In this document: positions 12,001 to 13,408 of the stretch, one piece after another
Position numbering within the stretch: position 1 is the first letter of the stretch
How the letters are laid out: each line of letters begins with the position of its first letter
From: a virus
Lineage: Duplodnaviria; Heunggongvirae; Uroviricota; Caudoviricetes
Strand: one strand, 5' to 3'
IMG/VR virus record: IMGVR_UViG_2698536458_000006
Length of the DNA: 13,408 nucleotides
Made by a program: the position numbers

Positions 12001-13408
12001 CAGTATGGCTTCCGGGGCTTCCACCAGTTCCGTGGAGGTCTGCCAGCCGTTCTGCGGGTCGGTATAATTCACCTCCACCGCCGTGTGCCGGTCCTTCAGG
12101 GCACTGAAGCTGTAGCGGAAACCCACGCCGTTATCATCCACCACCACATCGCTGTTGGTGTACGGCCACACCACATCCGACGGGCGGTCCTGAACAAACG
12201 TCAGCGTCTGGCCGTTCCATACCGGCATACAGCGCATCGCCGAGCAGAAATCACTGAGCACGTCCCATGCCTTACGCTGTTGTGCCAGGTACGCATTGAA
12301 GGTCATCCGCGGCTCGGTCTCCCCGAAACTATCCGGGACCGTCTGGTCGCAGTACTGCCCGATGGCATACAGCGCCCACTTGTCCACATCCGCCGCCCCC
12401 AGACGTTTTCCCATGCCGTAGCGCGGGTGAGTCAGCATGTCCCACAGACACCAGGCCGGATTGTTGCTGTATGCCGGTTTCAGGCTGCCGTCCCAGATAC
12501 CACTGTACGTGCGTTTTTCCGGGTCATAGTTTGACGGCACCTGGATGATGCGACCGCGGATATGGTAGTTCACCGTCATCTGCTGGCCGCCGAACTGCTC
12601 CGCATCCACCTGCAGCCCCACAATGGCCGTGTTCGGGTAGCACTGTTTCACATCGATGATTTCGGTGTATGACGACCACAGCGTCTTATTCTGCAGCTGG
12701 TCCGTGGTGCTGTCCGCTGTCTCCCGGACCATCCGGATGTTAAAAGGACGGGGAGGCAGATTATCCAGAATCACCGACGCCAGAAACTGCGAGGTGGTCT
12801 TGCCGTTAATGGTGACATCCTTTTCTGTCACCCAGTTACCGTTACGCTGTAACTGAATCAGCAGGCGGACGGATGTCGGGTTTCGGTCACCCTTTGACGT
12901 GGTCTGCACCAGTGACTGCACCCCGAAGGTAACCCGCAGGCGGTCAATGTTCGCGGACGTAATGGTGCGCGTCACCGGTTTTGCCTTCGTCACTTCCACG
13001 CCCAGTCCGGTTTCAGCACCGGAGGACTCAAAGCCTTCCGGTGGTGTCTGCTCCTGCTCCCCGGCGCGTCAGACCGCCGTCACACCGTGTATCACGGGAT
13101 TACCGTCCGTGTCCGTCAGCGGGGTTTTGTTCACCAGGATACTCTGCAGTCCCTTCACCGGACCTTCTATCAGTCCCTCACCAATCGCATCAATCACGCT
13201 CATCATCTGCGTGGATTTGAGATTATCCTTCGCCTCACGAGGCGTGTGTGCCTTACCGCCACCTTTTCCCATACAGCCTTCCCCTGAATAAATTAACCGC
13301 CACTTGCCATTCCGTACAGAAGTCGGATATCCTTCGCCCGAAAAGCATGAAACACATTTCTGCCATGCTAAAGAGAAACCCCGGTATCAGCAGATACCGG
13401 GGTTTTCT

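What the first reader, a model, noticed from the sequence alone, without database searches (positions are those of the whole stretch)
13069..13071. In-frame TGA at codon 68 of J
The minus-strand codons read GTC TGA CGC (V, stop, R) where lambda J has V-F-R. Strong J homology continues in the same frame immediately after the stop (RAGEQEQTPPEGFESSG...). A single substitution from TGG, TTA or TCA would create this stop. It would truncate the central tail fibre after 67 residues, so the prophage would be tail-defective unless this is a base-call error.
Basis: seen in the sequence. Interest (0 to 1): 0.45.

Follow-up and report, generated by a model that had tools for sequence, protein, structure and literature searches.

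The report
Real stop codon in decayed prophage J
The in-frame TGA is a genuine TGG-to-TGA nonsense mutation, shared by hundreds of Shigella sonnei assemblies, in the tail-tip gene J of a prophage remnant that carries at least one more disabling lesion: ordinary prophage decay, not a sequencing error and not a new mechanism.

Summary
Observation confirmed. The minus strand reads GTC TGA CGC at 13077-13069, and the ATG at 13272 opens a 67-codon ORF. J homology continues in frame after the stop. The window is the public record CXCW01000116.1, a 13,408-bp scaffold of a Shigella sonnei draft.

The ancestral codon is TGG (Trp), as in the closest intact E. coli J genes; lambda has Phe. The change is a single C>T at plus-strand base 13069.

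It is not a base-call error. The exact 67-aa product is called on 551 contigs, including complete S. sonnei chromosomes such as 53G and 866, and all ten fetched loci read TGA. The allele is absent from 5,426 complete E. coli genomes.

A 22-bp deletion between CTGACGG direct repeats shifts the frame after codon 624. Four further missense changes hit conserved Pro and Gly residues.

In complete genomes the prophage is cut upstream by IS elements inside FII.

The window itself is a chimeric scaffold. Its N joins duplicate parts of J and stf and fuse two prophages that lie 0.54 Mb apart.

Verdict: an ordinary, lineage-fixed pseudogene. Low interest.

The parts
13069..13272 (-). Truncated N-terminal J ORF: 67 codons, ATG at 13272-13270, preceded by a GGGGAAGG Shine-Dalgarno-like run.
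   Evidence: The start coincides with the annotated gpJ start in E. coli ATCC 25922 and UID2309220041.
13069..13071 (-). Premature opal stop codon (TGA, codon 68). It derives from TGG (Trp) by G>A at the third codon position, which is C>T at plus-strand base 13069. The next base is C (UGA-C context).
   Evidence: alignment with ATCC 25922. (10 S. sonnei loci read TGA; 2 E. coli loci read TGG). (lambda has Phe, relatives have Trp).
11399..13068 (-). J codons 69 to about 624, still in the original frame. Contains the FNIII-A_GpJ and Phage-tail_3 domains. Carries G315S, G318E and P593L; P34L lies upstream in the 67-aa ORF. Also carries the window-private D419A at base 12017.
11397..11400 (-). Junction of a 22-bp deletion (TGGAGGTGAGCGCAGCTGACGG in intact relatives) between two CTGACGG direct repeats. 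It shifts the frame; the old frame ends at TGA 11358-11356.
   Evidence: No place in 5,426 complete E. coli genomes covers at least 80% of a 60-mer that spans this junction. Linked to the TGA allele in IMG/VR contigs: 4 of 4 versus 0 of 36.
10560..11362 (-). J after the frameshift, in the new frame, up to the scaffold gap. The last roughly 550 bp (10577-11108) carry 29 clustered mismatches to complete S. sonnei genomes, so this is a hybrid or other-copy contig end.
10556..10559 (.). NNNN scaffold join inside J. The same roughly 595 bp of J (S. sonnei locus coordinates 12119-12713) lie on both sides of it, which is an artefactual duplication.
   Evidence: The Ns are in the public record itself.
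9222..10555 (-). C-terminal part of J (Phage_Tail_Tip and the Ig_GpJ_C receptor-binding domain), open to the natural stop at 9224-9222.
   Evidence: one amino-acid difference from complete genomes, no stop. Pfam domains.
8555..9154 (-). lom (Ail/Lom outer-membrane protein, 199 aa), the gene downstream of J in the same prophage.

Best explanation
The TGA is a fixed, inherited nonsense mutation (TGG Trp68 to TGA) in the gpJ tail-tip gene of a cryptic lambdoid prophage of Shigella sonnei.

Translation from the normal J start ends at codon 68 and releases a 67-residue peptide. Occasional read-through of this weak UGA-C stop by tRNA-Trp would restore the original residue. Even then, the ribosome would meet a 22-bp deletion after codon 624 that shifts the frame. 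Full-length J, about 1,157 aa with the C-terminal receptor-binding domain, is therefore not made.

In lambda, J is the tail-tip protein on which tail assembly starts. This prophage therefore cannot build tails.

The prophage is a remnant in any case. In complete S. sonnei genomes IS elements abut a 75-nt stump of FII directly upstream of Z.

Shown: the mutation, its ancestral state, its presence in many independent assemblies, the second lesion, and the IS boundary. Inferred: loss of function, and relaxed selection on J.
For: The sequence shows the stop and the 67-aa ORF.

The ancestral state is TGG. ATCC 25922 and UID2309220041 have intact J genes of 1,230 and 1,157 aa. 47 IMG/VR contigs hold the exact 40-mer with TGG.

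The mutation is real:
- The exact 67-aa product is in 633 index blocks and on 551 contigs, named Shigella sonnei by the sources.
- All 10 fetched loci read GTC TGA CGC. They include HE616528.1 (53G) and CP022672 (866) (strain identities from PMC5447701 and PMC6128377).
- Window bases 11109-13408 differ from these genomes at one base only.

The allele is lineage-specific. No exact 59-mer occurs in 5,426 complete E. coli genomes, and there is no match among the GTDB species representatives.

The second lesion is a 22-bp deletion flanked by CTGACGG repeats. Gene calls in complete genomes split J into 67 + 547 + 513 aa. The deletion is always linked to the TGA.

Signs of relaxed constraint: in the first 624 codons, compared with UID2309220041, there are five non-synonymous changes (P34L, W68*, G315S, G318E, P593L). 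All are G:C>A:T changes. Four of the five sites are invariant in lambda and three other J proteins.

IS boundary: homology to the intact E. coli prophage stops 74 nt into FII, next to IS21-family IstA/IstB and an IS3-family transposase.
Against: No reads, transcripts or proteins were examined, so loss of function is inferred.

All other tail genes (Z, U, V, G, T, H, M, L, K, I, lom) are still intact ORFs in S. sonnei. The module is therefore only lightly decayed, and residual use of some parts cannot be excluded.

Only about 2 kb upstream of Z could be seen. Absence of the head genes beyond the IS elements is not proven.

UGA is the leakiest stop codon and tRNA-Trp can misread it (PMC5289835), so termination at codon 68 is not absolute.
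Confidence: 0.92

Rival explanations
1. Base-call, consensus or assembly error in this draft scaffold: the true sequence has a sense codon.
For: The window is a poor-quality scaffold. It has four N runs, duplicated segments at the joins, and contigs from two prophages fused together.
Against: The TGA lies more than 1.9 kb from the nearest doubtful stretch, in a segment that matches complete genomes at all but one base. The same TGA is in 10 of 10 other S. sonnei loci, most of them closed chromosomes from different laboratories, and the product is on 551 contigs. The other J copy in the genome is only about 77% identical here, so collapse of repeats cannot create the stop.
Confidence: 0.01
2. 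Programmed recoding: the UGA is decoded as Trp by read-through, or as selenocysteine, so that a functional J is still made.
For: UGA is the leakiest stop and tRNA-Trp can misread it in E. coli (PMC5289835). The ancestral residue is Trp, so read-through would restore the wild-type sequence. The +4 base is C, which I recall as a weak termination context in E. coli (not checked here; PMC5289835 reports the +4C effect for yeast).
Against: The linked 22-bp deletion after codon 624 breaks the frame regardless of what happens at codon 68. The TGA is not conserved in any homologue outside this lineage. The 71 nt from the stop onward fold no better than shuffles (z = -0.78), so there is no SECIS-like hairpin. 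Unprogrammed read-through is expected to be rare.
Confidence: 0.02
3. Domesticated split gene: the fragments, for example the 513-aa C-terminal piece with the receptor-binding domain or the otherwise intact tail module, are kept and expressed for a host function. The stop would then be part of a functional rearrangement rather than decay.
For: Eleven neighbouring tail genes and lom remain intact ORFs in a species with many IS insertions in prophages (PMC6128377). Gene callers find long ORFs of 547 and 513 aa after each lesion.
Against: There is no evidence of promoters or ribosome-binding sites serving the internal fragments. Radical substitutions sit at conserved Pro and Gly positions of J. 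Strain-specific further decay is seen: IS insertion in stf in L009 and L012, and a 17-nt deletion in J in L011. From my own recollection, the common ancestor of S. sonnei is recent, which alone would explain intact neighbours.
Confidence: 0.04

Closest known systems
Bacteriophage lambda gpJ (central tail fibre / tip attachment protein, NP_040600.1)
   Same: Same start context, with near-identical N-terminus MGKG..KxHTPREAKDNLKSTQ. Same Pfam domain series, reconstructed across the fragments: FNIII-A_GpJ, Phage-tail_3, Ig_J, Ig_J_second, Phage_Tail_Tip, Ig_GpJ_C. Same gene order I-J-lom-stf.
   Different: Interrupted by TGA at codon 68, where lambda has Phe and close relatives have Trp, and by a 22-bp frameshifting deletion. 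A 343-nt I-J spacer replaces lambda's 60 nt.
Intact gpJ of E. coli lambdoid prophages (WP_059293907.1 in UID2309220041; WP_016265923.1 in ATCC 25922)
   Same: 97.8% DNA identity over the whole gene (UID2309220041) and 99.7% over the first 709 bases examined. The flanking tail genes match.
   Different: Those genes are uninterrupted (1,157 and 1,230 aa), with TGG at codon 68 and the 22 bp present.
Pseudogenes in cryptic, IS-riddled prophages of Shigella
   Same: Point nonsense mutation plus slipped-strand deletion plus IS truncation, fixed in the lineage. PMC6128377 reports that most prophages of S. sonnei 866 carry IS elements and that several are remnants.
   Different: Nothing essential. This is one specific instance.
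Laboratory nonsense mutants of lambda J (amber or opal)
   Same: A premature stop early in J abolishes tail formation (established lambda genetics, from my own knowledge).
   Different: Natural, fixed in a bacterial lineage, and accompanied by a second lesion, so a suppressor tRNA could not rescue it.

Membership tests
Lambda gpJ tip attachment protein family | Characteristic domain series (FNIII-A_GpJ, Phage-tail_3, Ig_J, Ig_J_second, Phage_Tail_Tip, Ig_GpJ_C) | tested here: met
   Pfam hits on the 547-aa and 513-aa fragments, E-values 1e-23 to 1e-40. The intact E. coli J gives the same series.
Lambda gpJ tip attachment protein family | Position in the tail module: after K and I, before lom and stf | tested here: met
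   Gene order in ten S. sonnei loci and in two E. coli prophages. lom lies at window 8555-9154.
Lambda gpJ tip attachment protein family | One uninterrupted ORF of about 1,130-1,230 codons encoding a functional protein | tested here: not met
   TGA at codon 68 and a 22-bp deletion after codon 624. The locus is a J pseudogene, not a functional member.
Pseudogene (decayed gene) | A disabling lesion relative to intact close orthologues | tested here: met
   TGG to TGA and a 22-bp deletion, compared with two intact E. coli J genes.
Pseudogene (decayed gene) | The lesion is real: reproduced in independent assemblies | tested here: met
   10 of 10 loci, 551 contigs, 5 IMG/VR contigs.
Pseudogene (decayed gene) | Signs of relaxed constraint beyond the first lesion | tested here: met
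   A second frameshift lesion, plus P34L, G315S, G318E and P593L; the P34, G315 and P593 sites are invariant and G318 varies in one homologue. The sample is too small for a formal dN/dS test.
Pseudogene (decayed gene) | No full-length product made | not testable with these tools
   Needs proteomics or a western blot.
Programmed UGA recoding (selenocysteine or conserved read-through) | UGA conserved among homologues | tested here: not met
   E. coli relatives have TGG and lambda has TTY. There is no exact TGA 59-mer in 5,426 E. coli genomes.
Programmed UGA recoding (selenocysteine or conserved read-through) | Stable stem-loop immediately 3' of the UGA (bacterial SECIS) | tested here: not met
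   Minimum free energy -26.9 kcal/mol against a shuffle mean of -24.35, z = -0.78.

The most novel reading that the evidence does not exclude
The leaky UGA-C stop, which tRNA-Trp could read to restore the ancestral Trp, and the split J fragments might be retained because S. sonnei uses the otherwise intact tail module or the free C-terminal receptor-binding fragment. Possible uses would be a tailocin-like or exclusion function. On this reading the lesions are part of domestication rather than neutral decay.
Probability: 0.03. Interest if true: 0.35.

Novelty: already known. Interest (0 to 1): 0.06.

Why it matters
It matters little biologically. It is one more pseudogene in a decaying prophage of a young, IS-rich pathogen, and the truncated product is already in public protein databases under S. 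sonnei.

It has two practical uses:
- The linked pair of lesions (TGA at codon 68 plus the 22-bp deletion) is absent from 5,426 complete E. coli genomes and could serve as a lineage marker for S. sonnei.
- The window shows how short-read scaffolds of polylysogens can fuse and duplicate prophage tail genes. Apparent oddities downstream of base 11100 in this record should not be read as biology.

Tried and rejected
- An exact 40-mer with the TGA was scanned against the GTDB species representatives and gave no hit. I take this to mean that S. sonnei has no representative of its own there (an inference). It therefore says nothing about whether the mutation is real.
- A 59-mer search of complete E. 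coli genomes gave no exact match. At first this looked like support for a private error. One search overturned that.
Loss of the head genes therefore remains inferred from the FII stump and the IS boundary.
- L010 shows holin and DUF1327 genes close to Z, but through a different IS junction, so it is not conclusive.
- A selenocysteine or structured read-through signal was rejected after folding.
- Per-gene synonymous and non-synonymous counts against UID2309220041 mix phage mosaicism with lineage-specific change. They were not used for any claim about selection.
- The Rfam scan found only IS009, far from J.

Full report
**Observation**

On the minus strand the window reads ACG GCG GTC TGA CGC GCC, with TGA at 13071-13069. 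The ATG at 13272 opens a 67-codon ORF that ends at this stop. The same frame then continues as RAGEQEQTPPEGFESSG... and carries J-like sequence to about codon 624. The 547-aa ORF that follows the stop hits Pfam FNIII-A_GpJ and Phage-tail_3.

**Where the window comes from**

The window-specific 547-aa ORF is an exact match to CSQ51884.1, 'host specificity protein [Shigella sonnei]'. That protein is found on a single contig of 13,408 bases. The contig is CXCW01000116.1 of assembly GCA_001258855.1. It is identical to the window, including the four N runs.

The scaffold is of poor quality and chimeric:
- Bases 13408-7672 come from one prophage: J, lom and the start of stf.
- Bases 7660-1 come from the tail end of a second prophage: the J2 C-terminus, a 160-aa lom, stf2 and tfa2. 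In the complete genomes CP032523.1 and UGZB01000001.1 this second module lies about 0.54 Mb away.
- At the NNNN join (10556-10559) the same roughly 595 bp of J occur on both sides.
- The contig end at 10577-11108 carries 29 clustered mismatches to complete genomes.
- A similar duplication of about 634 bp surrounds 3196-4046 in stf.

The apparent extra length of J (13272 to 9222, 4,051 nt) and the extra frame breaks below about 11100 are therefore assembly artefacts.

**The ancestral codon**

The closest intact J genes both read GTC TGG CGC. They are in E. coli ATCC 25922 (1,230 aa) and UID2309220041 (1,157 aa), and they are 99.7% identical to the window over the 709 bases 12700-13408. Forty-seven IMG/VR contigs hold the exact 40-mer with TGG. 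The change is one transition: C>T at plus-strand base 13069, which is G>A at the third codon position. The site is aromatic across the family: Trp in these relatives, Phe in lambda and in the second S. sonnei prophage.

**Real mutation or error?**

No complete E. coli genome (5,426 genomes, 2,780 matching places) holds the 59-mer with TGA. No GTDB species representative holds the 40-mer. However, the exact 67-aa product is recorded in 633 index blocks and on 551 contigs. All ten loci fetched read TGA. Most are closed chromosomes, and they include HE616528.1 (strain 53G, listed as phylogenetic group II) and CP022672 (strain 866). Five IMG/VR contigs carry it too. From 11109 to 13408 the window differs from these genomes at one base only, 12017, which gives D419A. 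The other J copy in the genome is only about 77% identical in this part, so repeat collapse cannot have created the stop. The base-call-error alternative is excluded. The mutation is fixed in S. sonnei.

**A second lesion**

Compared with the intact J of UID2309220041, the S. sonnei J has exactly one indel. It is a 22-bp deletion (TGGAGGTGAGCGCAGCTGACGG) between two CTGACGG direct repeats at nucleotide 1874, just after codon 624. This is the signature of replication slippage.
- In the window the junction lies at about 11398, and the old frame ends at TGA 11358-11356.
- Gene calls in complete genomes split J into 67 + 547 + 513 aa.
- No complete E. coli genome spans the junction.
- In IMG/VR the deletion is found in 4 of 4 TGA contigs with enough sequence, and in 0 of 36 TGG contigs.

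The two lesions therefore belong to the same lineage.

In the first 624 codons the non-synonymous differences from UID2309220041 are P34L, W68*, G315S, G318E and P593L. All are G:C>A:T changes. Four of the five sites are invariant in lambda, two E. coli J proteins and the second S. sonnei J. This fits relaxed constraint, although the numbers are too small for a formal test.

**Context**

In complete S. sonnei genomes the module Z-U-V-G-T-H-M-L-K-I-J-lom-stf-tfa is 98.5% identical to the E. coli UID2309220041 prophage. Homology stops 74 nt into FII. There an IS21-family element (IstA/IstB) and an IS3-family transposase begin. The other tail genes are still intact ORFs. Loss of the head genes is therefore inferred, not shown. 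Strain-specific further decay is visible: an IS insertion in stf in L009 and L012, and a 17-nt deletion in J in L011.

**Mechanism**

Ribosomes that start at 13272 terminate at UGA codon 68. [quoted passage not shown] Here the next base is C, which I recall as a weak termination context in E. coli; PMC5289835 reports the +4C effect for yeast. Read-through would restore the ancestral Trp. That is a neat point but irrelevant in practice, because the frameshift after codon 624 still prevents synthesis of the Ig-like, tail-tip and receptor-binding domains. The 71 nt from the stop onward fold no better than shuffles (z = -0.78), and the TGA is not conserved. Selenocysteine or programmed read-through is therefore rejected. 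From established lambda biology, J is the tail-tip protein on which tail assembly starts, so the prophage cannot make tails. This last step is inference.

**Comparison and novelty**

The locus is a pseudogene of the lambda gpJ family. Domains and synteny are met; an uninterrupted ORF is not. It is an ordinary instance of prophage decay in Shigella. S. sonnei prophages are reported to be rich in IS elements and remnants (PMC6128377). The truncated product is already in public databases under S. sonnei. Nothing here is new in kind.

The most novel reading not excluded is that the fragments or the intact neighbouring tail genes are retained for a host function. I give that about 3%.

**Verdict**

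Observation confirmed and interpretation supported, with the 'real mutation' branch established. The finding is ordinary. Interest is about 0.06.

Noticed in passing
window 3196-3217, 7661-7671, 7752-7855, 10556-10559: Four N runs that are present in the public record itself. The scaffold fuses the tail ends of two different S. sonnei prophages that lie about 0.54 Mb apart in complete genomes.
   Followed up: yes
window 9961-10555 and 10560-11154: The same roughly 595 bp of J occur on both sides of the NNNN join. The copy at 10577-11108 has 29 clustered mismatches to complete genomes, as if it were taken from a third J allele or a hybrid consensus.
   Followed up: partly
window 2565-3195 and 4050-4680: A stf segment of about 634 bp is duplicated around the stretch 3196-4046. 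This inflates the tail-fibre ORF 950-5524 to 1,524 aa, against 1,027 aa in complete genomes.
   Followed up: partly
window 8912-8972: 24 mismatches within 61 bases of lom, compared with complete S. sonnei genomes, in an otherwise identical stretch. This could be gene conversion or a mixed consensus with another lom copy.
   Followed up: no
window 409-607 (-): Rfam IS009 (a predicted E. coli sRNA family) matches at 218 bits, inside the tail-fibre assembly gene of the second prophage.
   Followed up: no
window 5617-6099 (-): The lom of the second prophage is only 160 aa, against 199 aa for lom at 8555-9154. It is called at 135-160 aa in complete genomes, so it may be truncated at the N-terminus.
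   Followed up: no
window 13370-13402 (-): A perfect 10-bp G+C-rich hairpin (CCCCGGTATC-TGCT-GATACCGGGG) followed by TTTCTCTTT lies about 107 nt upstream of the J start. It sits in a 343-nt I-J spacer, where lambda has about 60 nt. The consensus terminator scan does not call it.
   Followed up: partly
window 12017: The only base in 11109-13408 that separates this isolate from complete S. sonnei genomes. It gives D419A in the dead J gene.
   Followed up: yes
L003-L012 (S. sonnei loci) 1-2135 and 14200-19400: IS21-family and IS3-family elements cut FII upstream of Z. L009 and L012 have an IS3-family insertion in stf. L011 has a 17-nt deletion in J. L010 lacks most of the IS21 element and shows holin and DUF1327 genes near Z. 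Opposed tail-fibre-assembly genes and a 60-aa resolvase fragment suggest a decayed invertible tail-fibre segment.
   Followed up: partly
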